Source: a virus
IMG/VR virus record: IMGVR_UViG_3300023284_001318
Coordinates: 600 to 64,599 of that record
Length of the DNA: 64,000 bases
Direction: 5' to 3' (one strand)
The translations under genes and the position numbers were made by a program. The notes under the pieces are model-generated. The model made no database searches, was not told where the DNA came from, and saw only the letters and a list, made by a program, of their open reading frames with translations. Of this stretch, positions 1,977 to 64,000 are shown in pieces; within the stretch, counting starts at the first letter, position 1; each line of letters begins with the position of its first letter.

Positions 1977-2171
1977 AATGAATGTGGACAATTTATTACT
2001 CATTTTTATCATGACTTGTAGCGTAAGTGGGCTAGTACTCGCTTACGCAGCAGCAAACTGGGCCGTATTCTCCTGGATCATAAACTCAATGTTTTGGTGT
2101 ATTGCTTGGTATGTAAAATGACAACAATAATCCTCAAAAATGGATATTTATGATGCGGCGAAGGAGGAAGA
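1941..2171 (+). repeat. 32-bp direct repeat pair
   Basis: ATGGATATTTATGATGCGGCGAAGGAGGAAGA at 1941-1972 and 2140-2171. Confidence 0.95.
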
Positions 2172-2174
2172 ATA

Positions 2175-2396
2175 GTGCGACGCCGAGTGTATATTCCCTT
2201 TCAATCGGAAAAAGTACACTATGAACGAAAATGCAGCGAATGCCGAAAGGTTATTCCAGGAGGAACCGTATCCTTTGCTTCTCGTATTGGACCCAAAGTT
2301 TTAAAGGTTGTTTGTAGCGAAGATTGTAGATTAGATTTCGACCAACGATATTGGGAGAATATAGCCGATGCCCACGATAAAACTCAAAATGGGTGA
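2175..2396 (+). CDS. small Cys-motif hypothetical protein
   Basis: ORF with CSEC...CSEDC, preceded by AAGGAGG. Confidence 0.55.
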   Translation: MRRRVYIPFQSEKVHYERKCSECRKVIPGGTVSFASRIGPKVLKVVCSEDCRLDFDQRYWENIADAHDKTQNG

Positions 2397-2739
2397 TAGT
2401 CAGATAGTATCCCTTGATGCCGTCCATGGCAAAATAGGCGCTGTCCCTTTTAAATGCTGGGACAAGGACGGATCCGAAGCCTTCAGGGCAAAAATTCTCA
2501 AGCGCAATGCCTCAAACGCCTCTTATTATGTCCTTGGTCCTGTGGTTAAAGGCCTTATTGGTCGATTAGAAAGGGGCGGCAAGCACGGTGCTAAAACTAG
2601 GCGACGAATGACTGAAGGTGGTCGGAAAGGTGGGGAGAAAAAGGGTTGGCGGAAGTATTATTCACAGGTGAACATACCTCAGTCACTACAGGGGGCGCAG
2701 TCGCGTAGGGCGGCGAGGTCTCACAGGGCGTCAAAGTGA
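2368..2739 (+). CDS. hypothetical protein
   Basis: ORF only. Confidence 0.4.
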   Translation: MPTIKLKMGDSQIVSLDAVHGKIGAVPFKCWDKDGSEAFRAKILKRNASNASYYVLGPVVKGLIGRLERGGKHGAKTRRRMTEGGRKGGEKKGWRKYYSQVNIPQSLQGAQSRRAARSHRASK

Positions 2740-2876
2740 GACTTTAAGCTCTTGAGGATGAGGGAGAGGAACTATAGTAGGCGTGTGAATGGAGGCGATA
2801 TAGTAGGAGCTAGAAGTACCGTCTTAGGCGGTGGCTCCCGTCGTCTCCTTTGACCCGATAAACTGAGGACATAAAA

Positions 2877-3416
2877 ATGAAGAATCGTTACGAAGTGTTA
2901 GAAAATCGTATTGTAATTTATCTCGGAAAAAGATCCAAAGACATTTTAGAGACTATTATAGACTTACAAGATCTTTCGATTGTTTCAACACTAAAAGGAT
3001 ATTGGTGGGCGCATCCACGGACCACGGGAAACTATTATGTCCGTGGTTTATTTGGTGATATTAGCGTGAGCATTCACCGTTTAGTTATGAATCCACCCAA
3101 TACTATGGAAGTAGATCATCGTGACGGAAACAGTTTGGATAACAGACGATTAAATCTCAGGATTTGTACTCATCAACAAAACGGGTGGAACTCTCCTAAG
3201 AAAGGAAAGCTATGGTCATTACGTGGAGTTAGCTATGACTCTAGAAACAAAAAATGGCAAGCAAGAATTGAACATAACAAGCGATCATATTCACTAGGAA
3301 GTTTTGAGACAGCAGAAGAAGCTGCAAGAGCCTACGATAAAGCTGCCTTAAAATTAAGACCCGATTTTGCAAGACTGAATTTTGAGAATACGGCATGTCA
3401 AGAGATAACCAAATAA
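2877..3416 (+). CDS. HNH homing endonuclease with AP2 DNA-binding domain
   Basis: [18 protein letters not shown] (HNH_3) and [30 protein letters not shown] (AP2). Confidence 0.92.
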
Positions 3417-3429
3417 GTTGATTATATCT

Positions 3430-4464: not shown

Positions 4465-4956
4465 GTGATGACAATATCAGGTGAGCATGAATTGACCAGA
4501 AGATTAGAATTAGAGAGGGAAGTCGAGCGACTTAACGCCCAAATAGAAACCATTGGCAGCGAAGGTGACCCAATGATGATTGAACTTCGCCATCAGAAGG
4601 CCGAAGTGGAGAGGTTGGACGGTCAGCTCAAGGCTAAACACAAACTGCTGGCCGATCATGTTAATGAAGTCGAGCGGCTGAAGGCTGAGAATGAGAAGTT
4701 GCAAGTCCAACTAGCCGGTTGCAGCGTAGCCGCTCTCGGTGGGACAAATAATATCGCTAAACAGGGAGATTTTGGATGGTCGGCATCCTATCAAGATGTG
4801 GTTAATTTATATGCTAGGAAAGACAAACTCTGCGAGGCGTTAGAGAAGGCTCGTACATACTTAGAAGAGCGAGGCATAAGACACAGGGATCAGGTGGGTC
4901 GCCTGGAGGTATTGCCAATGATCGATGAAGCCCTCAAGGATTCAAAAGGAGGATAG
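4465..4956 (+). CDS. coiled-coil phage accessory protein
   Basis: repeated EVERL heptads. Confidence 0.6.
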   Translation: MMTISGEHELTRRLELEREVERLNAQIETIGSEGDPMMIELRHQKAEVERLDGQLKAKHKLLADHVNEVERLKAENEKLQVQLAGCSVAALGGTNNIAKQGDFGWSASYQDVVNLYARKDKLCEALEKARTYLEERGIRHRDQVGRLEVLPMIDEALKDSKGG

Positions 4957-59587: not shown

Positions 59588-61009
59588 TTGTTGGCGAGCG
59601 GAATAATGCCCACCCCCTTTGAACATCAAAAAGAGATGCTGGCCTTCCATGCCGCGTCTCCTAATACCCTGGATAACTCGGAGGTGGGTACAGGGAAAAC
59701 TGCGCCAGTAGTGACTTGGCTAAGAAAAAAAGCAACAGTTGATAATCCTGCTCTTGTCGTTTGCCCTAACTCAATACTCGATAATTGGGTTAAGGAAATT
59801 GAAACTTGGTCTTATTTACACTGTACTGTCCTTCGTGGCACAAAACAAAGACGGCTTGATTTGCTTGCACAGCCCACTCAGGTCTATCTAATCAACTACG
59901 AAGGTGTCCGTGTTATCCACAAAGAGCTAATGGCCAAGGGCTTCGATGCCGTCATAGCGGACGAAATCCATCACGTCAAGGCTTACAAGGGCAGCTACTC
60001 TAAGCCAACTCAATCCTTCCTAGTTAGAGAGCTAGGCCGTACTGCTACCTACACCAAGGGCATGACTGGAACCTTAATTACTAATGGCCTGGAAGATGCT
60101 TGGGCTATCGGAAGATTTATCGACCCAATGATTTTCCAGCAAAACGGTAAACCCTTGAATTTCTGGGGCTACCGTAATAAATATCTTCATGATGCCAACG
60201 CTGGCAAGTCCTGGATGAAATGGCCAGACATGAAGCCAAGACCAGGGGCCGTTGAGGAAATCAAAAAACTCCTTGCACCTTATACGATCCGCTTTGAGAA
60301 AAAGGATGTCCTCAAGTGGCTTCCCCCTGTGTTGTTTCAAAAGCGAATGGTCGAGCTAACGGATGAGCAAAAAAGAGCACTCCGCGATCTTAAGCACCAT
60401 TATCTGACTGAACTTAATGATGGCCACATTCTGACTGCCGCTCATATCGGACCACGAATTCAGAAAATGCTAGAGATAGAGAATGGGTTTGTGTATCGAG
60501 AGGGGGAAGAGACCTATAGGTTTAAACAGAATCCTAAGCTCAAAGAATTGAAAATCTTACTTGAGGAAATAGGGGATCAGAGAGTAGTTATCTGGGCGAC
60601 GTTTAAGGAAGAAGTTGAGATGATTTGGAACTTTCTTTCCATGTTAGTTCAATCTTCTGTAATAGCAAAGCTAGTTGGAGATACACCATTTGACGAGAGA
60701 CAGGATATTGTTAATATTTTCAACGCCAATAATTACCGATATCTCATCACCAACGCCGCTGTCGGCGGTGAGGGCATCACCTTGCTTTGCCCTTATGCCA
60801 TTTATTACAGCCGAGGCTGGAAGCTAATCCACCGACTTCAATCTCTTGGCCGGCATGACAGGCCAGGTGCAGAAATATTCGATAACTTGACAATGATTGA
60901 TATTGTGGCTCAGGGCGAGTGGGATGAGAAGGTGTGGACTAGCTTGGAGAATAAAGAGGACTTGTTGAAGAGTATCACGCCCGAAGTTTTCAGAAAGATG
61001 ATTCAATGA
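59588..61009 (+). CDS. SNF2-family helicase
   Basis: EVGTGKT, DEIHH, TGT, GGEGITL, QSLGRHDRPG. Confidence 0.9.
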   Translation: MLASGIMPTPFEHQKEMLAFHAASPNTLDNSEVGTGKTAPVVTWLRKKATVDNPALVVCPNSILDNWVKEIETWSYLHCTVLRGTKQRRLDLLAQPTQVYLINYEGVRVIHKELMAKGFDAVIADEIHHVKAYKGSYSKPTQSFLVRELGRTATYTKGMTGTLITNGLEDAWAIGRFIDPMIFQQNGKPLNFWGYRNKYLHDANAGKSWMKWPDMKPRPGAVEEIKKLLAPYTIRFEKKDVLKWLPPVLFQKRMVELTDEQKRALRDLKHHYLTELNDGHILTAAHIGPRIQKMLEIENGFVYREGEETYRFKQNPKLKELKILLEEIGDQRVVIWATFKEEVEMIWNFLSMLVQSSVIAKLVGDTPFDERQDIVNIFNANNYRYLITNAAVGGEGITLLCPYAIYYSRGWKLIHRLQSLGRHDRPGAEIFDNLTMIDIVAQGEWDEKVWTSLENKEDLLKSITPEVFRKMIQ

Positions 61010-62203
61010 TTATCGGTCGGCGTTTATCGAACAAAGCCCACTTATTAGAAGACAGTAGCAGTGGGCAATATCGAAGTCTTTGCGGGAAAGATGTTGCGCA
61101 TAAAGGTGGATTCAAATTAGAACGGCAAACCTGTGGTGCAGAGTTTACTCTTTGTCGGCTTTGCCTGAAATTACATAAAACGTTGTACAAGATGGGCATC
61201 TATGAATAGTGACACCCGCGAATATAGATTGGAGAATGATTCAATGATTTGCTTGAAATGCGGTGCTATGGCCGTCCCACGCTCTGATATGTGCCATGCT
61301 CACGGTGGAAAACCGAACGATTGGGATAAAGAATGCGAATTTGGGGAGATCCACGAAAACGGTGAGCCATGCAGGTGGTGCGACAATTCGGAGGGAGGGT
61401 ATTGACCAATATCCGCAAAGGAGAAACTATGAGCGAACACACCCATTGCTGGCACATTTATAGGGGACCATTTATGATGGTCCTTTCCGATGGCCACATT
61501 CTTCAAAAATGTTGTAGTTGTGAAGAAACAAGAACCATTCATGCTGATCATGCCGCAAGATAGAGAAGTAGACTGGCGCACCTGCCCGACCTGCGGAGAA
61601 GAACATCCATGGCGGATGGATTCGCCTAAAGTTTTTGTTGTGTGTCGCGTTTGTGCTGTGAAAGATGCTGCAAAGACAGCCGTAGCCCTTGCTAACGCCG
61701 GTCATGGTACAGGGTTTGGGAATCAAGGGGGGAAGAGATGAACATGATAACTATACCTCATGTGTTTGATCGGTATATTCTTAATCGCGAACCAGCAAGT
61801 CCCACCTGCACCCGCTGCCTTGAGCCCAACAGGATAACCCATCGGGCCATATCCGATGAAATGGATATGAGGATCTGCTTTAACTGTGCCTTGGAGGCCT
61901 GGAAGTGCATGGGGCCTCTCGGGCGGATTACGTTGGAGGTGGTGGAGTGATGCGCTGTTGGATGACCTGTCTTTGGATATTTCTCATTCTTATTAAGGTC
62001 TATGAAATTGGAGACGGTAGATGTGCTGCTGGTATTACTGAATTCAGTAATTGCGGATCACGGATAGAGAAGGCCGATTTCTCAAAGCCCTACGACTACA
62101 TTAGATATGGAGCATACCAGACTCAATATTGGATAGAGGTCTGGACAAACTATCCCGAGAAGAACGGCGAATTAATAACAAGAATGACATGGAGGCCGTG
62201 TTT

Positions 62204-62551
62204 ATGACCCACGACGAGATAGACAAGCTAGAAGCTGGCCCTGAGATGGATGTTCTTGTAGCGGAGAGGGTGATGAGATGGGAGCAAAGCATGGTAAGCC
62301 CTTGTAACTTTTTAGGGGAAACGGGAGTTATTCTAGGATTTAAGCCATCAAAGGATATCTCCTCCGCATGGGAGGTCCTACTCAAGATGCACGCTAACGG
62401 CTACGACTGGGGCATAGACGCAGACGAGGTTTACTTTCAAAAGGGCGACAACACCGCACCTGACTTTCGTTGTGGCACAGCGTTGAACTTTGGGATTGAG
62501 AAGATGCCTTTTGCGATCTGCAAGGCGGCATTGAAGGCAGTATCAGCATGA
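62204..62551 (+). CDS. phage ABA-sandwich-like protein (paralogue of 6457-6963)
   Basis: AGPEMDVLVAERVM...PSKDISSAWEVL...AICKAALK. Confidence 0.7.
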   Translation: MTHDEIDKLEAGPEMDVLVAERVMRWEQSMVSPCNFLGETGVILGFKPSKDISSAWEVLLKMHANGYDWGIDADEVYFQKGDNTAPDFRCGTALNFGIEKMPFAICKAALKAVSA

Positions 62552-62725: not shown

Positions 62726-63421
62726 ATGGACGGATTATGGACGGAATATGATGTAGTATGGACCTTTGTAAGAAAATTATGTGGGTCTGTACCTGGAAAT
62801 CCAGATTTATTAGAAACGGTTTTGAAGGCCCGAGCACCAAAGGTAAGACCCCCTGGCGGAAAAAGCATTCCTGAAATTCAGGAAGAAATAATCGCTACCT
62901 TAGAAGAAGGCGAAGAAGAGCCTGCCGTTAATGTTTTCCAAAAAGTAAACGGTTCTGTGGTCATGCGATCAGATAGCGTTAGGGCGCATATTAAAGAATG
63001 TGCCCGAATTGTTACTTGGCATTATGTGGGGTATGTTCAAGGCGAAAAGTCCCTGACAGCCCGAACAAAAAACTGTGTGTATGTAGGCGATTCTGACAAT
63101 TACTTCATACCGATTTTGCGGCCAGACGGTAAATTAGTCTCAGACCATGATGGGCGAATAACTAAACCCATGCACAGTACGGATCAAAGGGGTCGGCCAG
63201 TTAATGCTATTAAGACATTCGAGTGGGTAGAACCAGCAAGGCTCGATTTTCATCTTAAAGTATTTGGTGGAGCGGTTAAACTGGATGATCTTAAAACTAT
63301 CATGGAATATGGTAGCGTTCATGGATTTGGCGGTGAGAGGTCGGCAGGGGAGGGGAAATATATCTTTAAAATCATTGAAAGGAGAAATGACCATGGCAGA
63401 AAAACAGCGAAAAAGGCTTAG
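62726..63421 (+). CDS. solitary Cas7-like RAMP (RRM-fold) protein
   Basis: N-terminal strand YDVVWTFVRKLCGS.P, helix SDSVRAHIKECAR, thumb-like hairpin, C-terminal G-rich loop YGSVHGFGGERSAGEGKY. Confidence 0.8.
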   Translation: MDGLWTEYDVVWTFVRKLCGSVPGNPDLLETVLKARAPKVRPPGGKSIPEIQEEIIATLEEGEEEPAVNVFQKVNGSVVMRSDSVRAHIKECARIVTWHYVGYVQGEKSLTARTKNCVYVGDSDNYFIPILRPDGKLVSDHDGRITKPMHSTDQRGRPVNAIKTFEWVEPARLDFHLKVFGGAVKLDDLKTIMEYGSVHGFGGERSAGEGKYIFKIIERRNDHGRKTAKKA

Positions 63422-63635
63422 GACTATTTCAGAGATTAGTGAGGCTTATGAGGATCTCTACAATAAACAAATGGTTGGCGACATTGACTCTAAAGCGGTC
63501 GACGGCATCAACACAACACTTAAAGGTGTTACCTACCTGAATGCAAAATTGAAGATGGACGCTGCTAAGTTGGTGCTTCAGGCTAGGATTAAAAAAATCA
63601 GCTTGCCGGACAATTTGCTGCCAGATATCAGTTGA
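63393..63635 (+). CDS. 80-aa helical protein between the RAMP gene and the array
   Basis: AGGAGA RBS; overlaps the 3' end of the RAMP gene. Confidence 0.65.
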   Translation: MAEKQRKRLRTISEISEAYEDLYNKQMVGDIDSKAVDGINTTLKGVTYLNAKLKMDAAKLVLQARIKKISLPDNLLPDIS

Positions 63636-63637
63636 GT

Positions 63638-64000
63638 TGTAGTCGAGGTGTGTGTTGTTAGTGAATTGACCCGTGATGAAGTCGAGGATTGCTCCGACGT
63701 GCCGGGGGGTGCTTTGACCTGTAGTGAAGTCGAGTCACGAGGTGCCGTGGACTTTCTTGTTGTGGCCTGAAGTCGAGTTGCGTTCTGTCCTGTTGTGAAT
63801 TGTTATGTAAGGAAGTCGAGGGTTGAGTTGGGGTGTCATTGTTTGTGATGATTTGAAGTCGAGGCATGGGTTGCCCTGTGATGGCATGGGATGGGGTGAA
63901 GTCGAGCTATGGGGTGTCGTGCACTTCTGTGAAGTGAAGTCGAGGATTGTGGTGGGCTGTTACGGAATGTTGTGAAATGAAGTCGAGTAATGGGGCGAAA
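63638..64000 (+). repeat. array of TGAAGTCGAG delimiters with 5-nt-periodic (YG-NNN)n interiors; truncated by the window end
   Basis: delimiters at 63638, 63677, 63725, 63768, 63811, 63854, 63897, 63935 and 63978; periods 39, 48, 43, 43, 43, 43, 38, 43. Confidence 0.92.

What the first reader, a model, noticed from the sequence alone, without database searches (positions are those of the whole stretch)
62726..64000. Orphan Cas7/RAMP gene plus a pentamer-coded guide-like array (VIPR-like system with a YG-NNN code)
Seen: a 231-aa ORF with RAMP hallmarks, including the C-terminal G-rich loop GSVHGFGGERSAGEG, and no cas1/2/3/5/6/8 in the window. About 215 nt after its stop is an array of nine TGAAGTCGAG delimiters. 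Each interior parses as NNN plus 5-7 pentamers that mostly start with TG or CG, e.g. gca|tgggt|tgccc|tgtga|tggca|tggga|tgggg and ttg|cgttc|tgtcc|tgttg|tgaat|tgtta|tgtaa. Unit lengths change in steps of 5 (38, 43, 48; the first unit, 39, has one hexamer). Known: Cas7-family proteins polymerise along guide RNA in a fixed nucleotide register. As I recall (not verified here), viral VIPR systems pair a Cas7-like protein with GGY/NN pentamer RNAs that read gapped DNA targets. Inference: each unit is a processed guide in which YG anchors one RAMP subunit and the variable NNN triplets specify a non-contiguous target. A 2-fixed/3-variable code with a 10-nt delimiter would be a distinct variant.
Basis: partly seen in the sequence, partly recalled or inferred. 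Interest (0 to 1): 0.95.

Follow-up and report, generated by a model that had tools for sequence, protein, structure and literature searches.

The report
Phage VIPR guide-RNA system, NYG variant
This 65-kb phage carries a real VIPR system (a lone Cas7-like protein, a small partner gene and an array of short guide RNAs written in five-base units). VIPR is a CRISPR-related kind first described in 2026; this copy has an unusual constant motif and very short guides, but relatives' guides appear to read DNA by the published rule.

Summary
ORF 62726-63421 encodes a RAMP-fold protein. Its five best AlphaFold-DB cluster matches are exactly the five founding Vipr proteins named in the VIPR discovery preprint.

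It is conserved next to vipr in at least 34 related loci.

The array starts 4 nt after that ORF. It has 12 delimiters and 11 units in the full genome and runs past the window end. Each unit parses as (N N N Y G)x5-8 plus an 8-nt tail ending in CGAG. In-phase YG occupies 55 of 62 pentamers, about 12.7 sd above shuffles. The same grammar follows vipr in 53 of 56 related loci: 390 units on the vipr strand, 0 on the other.

Three guides of a relative's array match one phage replication module at target period 3. N1N2 match 26/26 while N3, opposite the codon wobble base, matches only 5-9/13. An equally strict period-4 pattern found nothing.

So the reading rule looks like the published one (two bases read, one target base skipped), with constant N-Y-G instead of G-G-Y.

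Targets of this window's own guides remain unknown. Other VIPR loci were found before in this scan.

The parts
62726..63421 (+). vipr: 231-aa stand-alone RAMP (Cas7-like) protein. It has an RRM core, a beta-hairpin thumb (about residues 143-168) and a G-loop (about residues 196-211).
   Evidence: ORF. No Pfam or PHROG match. 39 homologues with invariant G200/G203/E204/R205. AF2 model pLDDT 82.8. The top 5 AFDB clusters are the five founding Vipr entries of the preprint. PDB matches are Cas7/Csm3 of types VII and III.
63393..63635 (+). vap-like accessory gene: 80-aa two-helix hairpin protein. Its start overlaps the end of vipr by 29 nt.
   Evidence: ORF and AGGAG before the ATG. Homologues lie beside vipr or just after the array in at least 34 related loci. 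Model pLDDT 83.9, helices 12-28 and 33-66. No Pfam match or PDB fold match. Vipr+vap complex prediction gave weak support: 0.60 against best control 0.00.
63639..64000 (+). vrRNA array, the part inside the window. It continues to window-equivalent 64107 (genome 64706), giving 12 CGAG-terminated delimiters and 11 units in all.
   Evidence: No Rfam family. No excess RNA structure, z = +0.88. No inverted repeats.
63639..63647 (+). Leading delimiter GTAGTCGAG, 4 nt after the vap stop codon.
63648..63686 (+). Unit 1, 39 nt, irregular (one extra base), tail AAGTCGAG.
63687..63734 (+). Unit 2, 48 nt, 8 pentamers plus tail. Its N1N2 pattern at period 3 has two in-frame matches (peptide DLTPGLTY) in long ORFs of viral contigs. 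This is a weak lead.
63735..63777 (+). Unit 3, 43 nt, 7 pentamers plus tail.
63778..63820 (+). Unit 4, 43 nt, 7 pentamers plus tail.
63821..63863 (+). Unit 5, 43 nt, 7 pentamers plus tail.
63864..63906 (+). Unit 6, 43 nt, 7 perfect NNNTG pentamers plus tail.
63907..63944 (+). Unit 7, 38 nt, 6 pentamers plus tail. Its orthologue in the closest relative (L003) differs by one read base.
63945..63987 (+). Unit 8, 43 nt, 7 pentamers plus tail.
63988..64000 (+). Start of unit 9 (39 nt, irregular), cut by the window end. Units 10 and 11 lie beyond it.

Best explanation
This is a phage-borne VIPR system (Viral Interference Programmable Repeat; bioRxiv 10.64898/2026.04.26.720920 and .720927). It is an operon of vipr, a small vap-like gene and an array of 11 short vrRNA units.

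Proposed mechanism (inferred by analogy with the published system, not shown here):
1. The operon transcript is cut at or near each invariant CGAG into RNAs of about 38-48 nt.
2. Vipr protomers polymerise along each RNA, one per pentamer.
3. Each protomer holds the constant N3-Y4-G5 and presents the dinucleotide N1N2.
4. The filament binds double-stranded DNA in which the N1N2 dinucleotides recur every third base. The third base, usually a codon wobble position, is skipped.
5. Binding silences transcription of genes of competing phages and possibly of host defence genes.

Shown here:
- the fold and its closest relatives;
- the grammar of the array and its strict, strand-specific association with vipr across the family;
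- period-3, N1N2-only matching of a relative's guides.

Not shown here: RNA processing, the one-protomer-per-pentamer assembly, silencing, and the targets of this window's own guides.
For: Fold:
- AF2 model pLDDT 82.8, with an RRM core, a G-loop between the last helix and strand, and a long beta-hairpin.
- Foldseek against AFDB clusters ranks A0A1F4YLN4 (E 1.8e-13, TM 0.68), A0A2D6XG06, X1U2U4, A0A0F9A1L0 and A0A661D0E2 first, ahead of all CRISPR RAMPs.
- These are exactly the five founding Vipr hits listed in the preprint's methods.
- PDB matches are Cas7/Csm3.

Context:
- The record is a complete virus record with 144-bp terminal repeats.
- There is no Cas1.

Array:
- In-phase YG in 55/62 pentamers, about 12.7 sd above shuffles.
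- 390 clean units on the vipr strand and 0 on the other strand over 324 kb of 56 loci.
- In this genome only the array scores.
- Family logo: N, N, g (49% G), Y (T 80%, C 15%), G (98%); tail N-M-G-Y-CGAG.

Accessory gene: conserved in at least 34 loci.

Information lies in the variable bases. A guide shared by five diverged phages keeps its triplets while its YG linkers drift.

Reading rule:
- The composite of guides 1+2 of relative L060, as NNx with 26 specified bases, hits 8 places in 5 of 401 genomes of the host's phylum. Four of these have 0 mismatches. The reversed control gives 0.
- Guide 6 of the same array hits the adjacent helicase gene at 15/16.
- The period-4 equivalent gives 0.
- The published mechanism gives the same geometry.
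Against: - No RNA data. No sequencing run could be listed for this locus, so expression, processing sites and Vipr binding are untested.
- The constant motif is N-Y-G, not the published G-G-Y.
- The tail is 8 nt with no predicted structure, unlike the pseudoknot tail of type II.
- The rule was tested on relatives (about 38% identical Vipr for L060), not on this phage's own guides. Those gave no significant match.
- One guide of other relatives has an exact 21/21 match at period 4 in a terminase gene. From the calibration this is expected only about 0.002-0.007 times per pattern, and it remains unexplained.
Confidence: 0.88

Rival explanations
1. One reading: all three variable bases are read, either contiguously (NNN, no skipped target base) or with one skipped base (NNNx, target period 4). 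On this reading the family has a new 3-read / 2-fixed code.
For: - N3 is variable.
- N3 is fully conserved in the guide shared by five phages, while the YG linkers drift.
- That guide read contiguously matches 8 metagenome contigs exactly, all 7 N3 bases included.
- Read as NNNx, it matches a terminase gene 21/21.
Against: - L060 guides match their targets 26/26 and 15/16 at N1N2, but only 5-9/13 and 2-7/8 at N3.
- Period 4 gives 0 hits at equal stringency.
- The exact contiguous hits were selected to match N3, so they cannot test it.
- Window unit 2 ends in TAG, an impossible in-frame codon in the frame of its two in-frame matches.
- The N3 G-bias (49%) suggests a partly constant base.
- No other guide converged on the terminase contig.
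Confidence: 0.15
2. A degenerate or miniature CRISPR-Cas module: an orphan Cas7 of a type III, IV or VII system with a decayed CRISPR array.
For: The PDB fold matches are Cas7/Csm3 proteins. The locus is repeat-plus-variable in layout.
Against: - The 'repeat' is only 8-10 nt with no hairpin.
- The 'spacers' are themselves 5-nt periodic.
- There is no Cas1 in the genome.
- The protein is closer to the Vipr clusters than to any CRISPR RAMP.
- The two-gene-plus-array layout is conserved in about 50 phage loci.
Confidence: 0.03
3. The periodic tract is not a guide array. It would be a DNA-level signal at the genome end (for example packaging or terminase-binding repeats) or a G/T-rich tandem repeat that happens to lie beside the gene.
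For: The array lies about 230 nt from the terminal repeat of the genome. In some relatives it lies just upstream of the terminase genes.
Against: - In other loci the array sits before or after vap, or upstream of vipr, but always on the vipr strand.
- The variable bases differ between close relatives while the frame is kept.
- Relatives' units match foreign genes under the published code.
Confidence: 0.02

Closest known systems
VIPR systems: Vipr + vap + vrRNA. The type II exemplars are Escherichia phage SUSP1 and a Pseudomonas fulva prophage (bioRxiv 10.64898/2026.04.26.720920, .720927 and 2026.10.15.759431).
   Same: - A stand-alone minimal RAMP, encoded by a virus.
- A two-gene operon with a small accessory gene.
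- Guide RNAs built of tandem pentamers, with a constant part and a variable part.
- In relatives, targets in coding sequences read as two bases plus one skipped wobble base, on either strand.
- No self-targets.
   Different: - The constant trinucleotide is N-Y-G (weak G, then T/C, then G) instead of G-G-Y.
- Units have 5-8 repeats (38-48 nt) instead of 9-16 repeats (about 100 nt).
- The tail is 8 nt ending in CGAG, with no predicted fold, instead of a pseudoknot tail.
- Units abut without spacers.
- The accessory protein is an 80-aa helical hairpin with no detectable family.
Staggered vrRNA arrays and the alternative repeat consensuses (NNNGG, YNNNG, NNNNG) mentioned for other VIPR types in the same preprint (fig. 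S17, S18; methods).
   Same: - Back-to-back vrRNAs in which the end of one marks the start of the next.
- Pentamers with fewer than three strongly conserved positions.
   Different: NNNYG is not one of the consensuses listed, although NNNNG could include it. The figures and tables that assign types are not held, so it could not be decided whether this clade is one of the seven types.
Class 1 CRISPR Cas7 backbones (Csm3, Cmr4, type VII Cas7).
   Same: The RRM, G-loop and thumb fold. One protomer per fixed number of guide nucleotides.
   Different: - No cas1/2, no large or small subunit genes and no hairpin repeats.
- A 5-nt rather than 6-nt register.
- Gapped rather than near-contiguous pairing.

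Membership tests
VIPR | Vipr protein: a minimal RAMP (RRM core, G-loop, thumb) that groups with Vipr proteins rather than with CRISPR RAMPs. | tested here: met
   AF2 model. The top five AFDB clusters are the five founding Vipr entries. Cas7/Csm3 matches are weaker.
VIPR | Locus without CRISPR array or cas genes, mostly viral. | tested here: met
   Complete virus record with terminal repeats. No Cas1 in the genome. No hairpin repeats. Other cas families were not searched individually.
VIPR | Adjacent accessory gene (vap). | tested here: met
   An 80-aa ORF overlaps the vipr stop and is conserved in at least 34 loci. Homology to the published vap1-6 could not be tested, because their sequences are not held.
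VIPR | vrRNA made of tandem pentamers alternating GGY and NN. | tested here: not met
   The pentamer rhythm is present, but the constant part is N-Y-G, not G-G-Y. The preprint allows 'a related consensus', and that looser criterion is met.
VIPR | Invariable structured 3' tail after the repeat tract (type II). | tested here: not met
   The tail is only 8 nt (N-M-G-Y-CGAG). The array is no more structured than shuffles. No Rfam family, including hammerhead.
VIPR | Targets read as NN plus one skipped base (period 3), the skipped base at the wobble position. | tested here: inconclusive
   Met for relatives (supportive: 87-91). For this window's own guides there are only two weak in-frame matches, and no hit otherwise.
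VIPR | vrRNAs are expressed, processed and bound by Vipr, and the complex silences transcription. | not testable with these tools
   No sequencing run was listed.
CRISPR-Cas class 1 | Adaptation genes and an array of 23-50-nt repeats separated by contiguous spacers. | tested here: not met

The most novel reading that the evidence does not exclude
Phages of this Vipr clade may use VIPR guides against host immunity as well as against rival mobile elements.

One guide is kept in five diverged phages. It spells, antisense and base for base, the invariant ENFADKW motif of the CD-NTase cyclase of bona fide CBASS operons (capP, cyclase, E2, phospholipase). That would be RNA-guided silencing of a defence gene.

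In addition, the clade's N-Y-G constant motif and 8-nt CGAG tail would define a distinct vrRNA grammar and processing route.
Probability: 0.3. Interest if true: 0.85.

Novelty: new variant of a known kind. Interest (0 to 1): 0.55.

Why it matters
VIPR was described only in 2026, and its code has been tested experimentally on GGY/NN guides of type II alone.

This locus and about 50 relatives show a second, compact grammar: an N-Y-G constant, 5-8 repeats and an 8-nt tail. In relatives' guide-target matches this grammar appears to obey the same two-read, one-skip rule. That supports the view that target geometry is set by the Vipr filament rather than by the identity of the constant bases.

Guides of 38-48 nt with no structured tail would be the smallest natural format for this kind of programmable DNA binder.

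The CBASS-cyclase match in relatives, if real, would widen the biology from phage-against-phage conflict to phage-against-host defence.

Tried and rejected
- Pfam and PHROGs on Vipr and vap: nothing. A PDB sequence search gave only a marginal Csm4 match. tblastn against isolated phages gave no match.
- vap fold against PDB: no match at E 0.001 or better.
- Vipr+vap complex: weak support only. Score 0.60, best control 0.00. In the calibration the mark was reached by 58 of 80 solved complexes and 2 of 110 mismatched pairs. The runs agree in at least 62% of contacts, and the partner's pLDDT is at least 67.
- RNA evidence: no run was listed.
- All 267 guides against about 0.8-1 Mb of fetched loci and the phage's own genome, under periods 2-6: no excess over reversed-guide controls and no self-targets.
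- Period-4 reading: one exact terminase hit. No convergence of other guides on that contig, the variant guide found nothing, two window guides found nothing, and the strict test on L060 gave 0.
- Period-5 reading: it finds only the arrays themselves.
- Codon-phase GC test and stop-codon frame counts on decoded guides: no power.
- L060 guides against their own host genome: no hit.
- Other guides against the CBASS loci: nothing above noise, except one 19/21 match at period 4 that was not followed up.
- Host prediction from the SNF2 helicase: no close relative. Relatives cannot be drawn for a virus record.
- Sigma-70 promoter scan: none in the locus.
- One search folded the wrong stretch by my error. 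One search is the correct one.
- The preprint's type assignment could not be read, because figures and data tables are not held.

Full report
**What is in the sequence**

The window is bases 600-64599 of a 65,083-bp IMG/VR virus record with 144-bp direct terminal repeats. Three features follow one another on the + strand.
- ORF 62726-63421 encodes 231 aa behind an AGGAGG.
- A second ORF, 63393-63635 (80 aa), starts 29 nt before the first one stops.
- Four bases after its stop comes GTAGTCGAG, followed by eight exact GAAGTCGAG in the window.

Reading the whole genome shows that the array goes on past the window end to genome position 64706. It has 12 delimiters and 11 units of 39, 48, 43, 43, 43, 43, 38, 43, 39, 38 and 43 nt.

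**Is the rhythm real?**

Each unit parses as (N N N Y G) repeated 5-8 times, then AAGTC, then GAG.
- Of 62 pentamers in the nine regular units, 55 carry Y-G at positions 4-5.
- Position 4 is T in 54 and C in 4. Position 5 is G in 59.
- Positions 1-3 are close to uniform.
- The best-phase YG count is 62, against 33.1 +/- 2.3 (maximum 42) in 2000 dinucleotide-preserving shuffles.

The array has no inverted repeats, no Rfam match and no more predicted RNA structure than shuffles, z = +0.88. The two other exact GAAGTCGAG copies in the window (4519, 4666) lie in a coiled-coil coding region and are chance.

**The protein**

It has no Pfam or PHROG family. It does have 39 close and 247 more distant homologues, almost all unnamed metagenomic proteins. 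They share an invariant G-loop, consensus YGGVHGYAGERSxGEGKY.

The AlphaFold2 model (pLDDT 82.8) shows:
- an RRM-type core;
- a long beta-hairpin at about residues 143-168;
- the glycine-rich loop between the last helix and the last strand.

Against solved structures it matches Cas7/Csm3 subunits of type VII and type III complexes (E down to 3.6e-7). Against AlphaFold-DB clusters the five best matches are A0A1F4YLN4 (E 1.8e-13, TM 0.68), A0A2D6XG06, X1U2U4, A0A0F9A1L0 and A0A661D0E2. The methods of the VIPR discovery preprint name exactly these five entries as the founding Vipr proteins. The genome has no Cas1.

**Does the array travel with the protein?**

Fifty-three viral contigs and one Elusimicrobia metagenome-assembled genome (MAG) encode relatives of the protein. 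A simple parser looked for units that end in CGAG, have length 5n+8, and carry at least 70% in-phase YG.
- It finds 390 units on the vipr strand and none on the opposite strand over 324 kb.
- 53 of 56 loci have at least two units.
- In the window's own 65-kb genome it finds only this array.

The family-wide pentamer is N, N, g (49% G), Y (T 80%, C 15%), G (98%). The tail is N-M-G-Y-C-G-A-G, in which only CGAG is invariant. Repeat number peaks at 6-8.

The 80-aa ORF has homologues next to vipr, or just behind the array, in at least 34 loci. It folds as a two-helix hairpin with no recognisable relatives. A Vipr+vap complex prediction gave only weak support. The score was 0.60 and the best control 0.00. 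The calibration mark was reached by 58 of 80 solved complexes and 2 of 110 mismatched pairs.

**Which bases carry the information, and how are targets read?**

The published system reads the NN of GGY/NN against targets in which every third base is skipped, usually the codon wobble base. I tested target periods 3, 4 and 5.

1. A guide shared by five diverged phages (L023, L026, L029, L032, L058) keeps its seven triplets while its YG linkers drift. So the variable bases are under selection.

2. The prophage array in the Elusimicrobia MAG (L060) has two guides that overlap by four triplets. I wrote their composite as N1N2-x (26 specified bases, up to 3 mismatches).
   - It hits 8 places in 5 of 401 genomes of that phylum, four of them with no mismatch. 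The reversed control gave 0.
   - The hits lie antisense on the motif PYDGSLDFDTDEY of a 160-aa DUF669-like gene.
   - A third guide of the same array hits the neighbouring helicase gene at 15/16.
   - The genes sit in a helicase / DUF669-like / predicted ATPase / predicted nuclease module. The last two were judged by eye from ORF translations, not by a family search. The module occurs four times in one genome.
   - N1N2 pair with codon positions 2 and 1. N3 faces the wobble base and agrees in only 5-9 of 13 and 2-7 of 8 positions.

3. The same composite written at period 4, with the same number of specified bases and mismatches, hits nothing in the same 401 genomes.

4. Period 5 finds only the arrays themselves.

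I conclude that this clade uses the published two-read, one-skip geometry. N3 is a variable but at most weakly read first base of an N-Y-G constant block. The possibility that N3 contributes is kept as a rival at 0.15.

**A guide that points at host defence (in relatives, not in this window)**

The shared guide, read contiguously, has no match in the viral collection. It has 8 exact matches in metagenome contigs.
- All 8 lie antisense on one heptapeptide, ENFADKW, in otherwise diverged homologues.
- The protein is a CD-NTase: PADLOC oligonucleotide cyclase at E 1e-105, and Pfam SMODS.
- In 120 homologues the motif is ENFA[D/E]KW in 112.
- One contig shows the full CBASS operon: capP, cyclase, E2 and a phospholipase effector.

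These hits were selected for exact identity, so they count as one event rather than eight. No other guide converged on these loci. An earlier claim of this kind in the scan partly fell on later checks (note e1-5205340). I therefore give the anti-defence reading about 0.3.

**The window's own guides**

No self-targets and no significant match appeared in about 1 Mb of fetched sequence. Two guides at period 4 found no viral match.

Unit 2, written as N1N2-x (16 specified bases), has two matches in the viral collection. Both are in frame on the sense strand and encode DLTPGLTY in long ORFs, one of 917 aa. The ORFs look to me, untested, like beta-sandwich domains of tail proteins, and the contigs look much more GC-rich than this phage. 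This is only a lead. It does show that N3 of the last triplet (TAG) cannot be read in that frame.

**Unexplained**

The shared guide also has one exact 21/21 match at period 4 in a large-terminase gene. Going by the two hits obtained for a 16-base pattern, the chance expectation for a 21-base pattern is roughly 0.002-0.007. I ran four such patterns. Nothing else supports it.

**Comparison and novelty**

The locus meets these VIPR criteria:
- a Vipr-type RAMP;
- no CRISPR context;
- a viral genome;
- an accessory gene;
- a pentamer guide array.

In relatives it also meets the skip rule. It does not meet the literal GGY/NN consensus or the structured tail of type II.

The preprint states that other types use "a related consensus" (NNNGG, YNNNG, NNNNG) and that staggered back-to-back arrays exist. 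The figures and tables that would show whether this clade is among them are not held. This scan has already reported VIPR loci in at least 73 other genomes, none with this protein. I file it as a new variant of a known kind, with moderate interest.

Noticed in passing
L069-L076 (metagenome contigs); guide at L023:4718-4760, L029:4151-4193, L032:4914-4956, L026:2729-2771, and an unparsed copy at L058:874-906: A guide shared by five diverged phages of this Vipr clade spells, antisense, the invariant ENFADKW motif of a CBASS CD-NTase. One contig (L070) carries capP, cyclase, E2 and a phospholipase effector. This suggests possible RNA-guided silencing of a host defence gene.
   Followed up: partly
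L061:2342-2368 (IMG/VR contig, large-terminase gene 2130-3422): The same guide read as NNNx (period 4) matches 21/21 in a terminase gene. The expected chance count is roughly 0.002-0.007 per pattern, and no other evidence supports period 4. Unexplained.
   Followed up: partly
L077-L084 (genomes of the Elusimicrobia MAG's phylum); guides at L060:4114-4256 and 4714-4761: Three guides of a prophage array converge on adjacent helicase and DUF669-like genes of a replication module. The module is present in four copies in one genome. N1N2 match perfectly and N3 lies on the wobble positions.
   Followed up: yes
window 63687-63734 (unit 2); L085:476-498, L086:2657-2679: The N1N2 pattern of unit 2 has two viral matches. 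Both are in frame and encode DLTPGLTY in what look like beta-sandwich domains of long tail-like proteins from contigs that appear GC-rich. Possibly chance.
   Followed up: partly
genome 64708-64992, just beyond the window end (L001:2210-2494): The ORF directly after the last array unit is weakly VRR-NUC-like (Pfam E 3.9e-4, below the curated cut-off) and runs into the 144-bp terminal repeat. A similar-looking ORF follows the array in the closest relative L003 (judged by eye).
   Followed up: partly
L070:602-628: A second guide of L023 (4250-4292) matches 19/21 at period 4 about 2.8 kb upstream of the CBASS cyclase. Not examined further.
   Followed up: no
L011-L014, L037, L041: Some relatives carry a second array upstream of vipr, or have vap placed after the array. 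The module order is therefore flexible, but the strand is not.
   Followed up: partly
window 62129-62551 and 59588-61009: The genes upstream of vipr include a Phage_ABA_S (ABA sandwich) domain protein and an SNF2-type helicase. The helicase is syntenic in the closest relative L003.
   Followed up: partly
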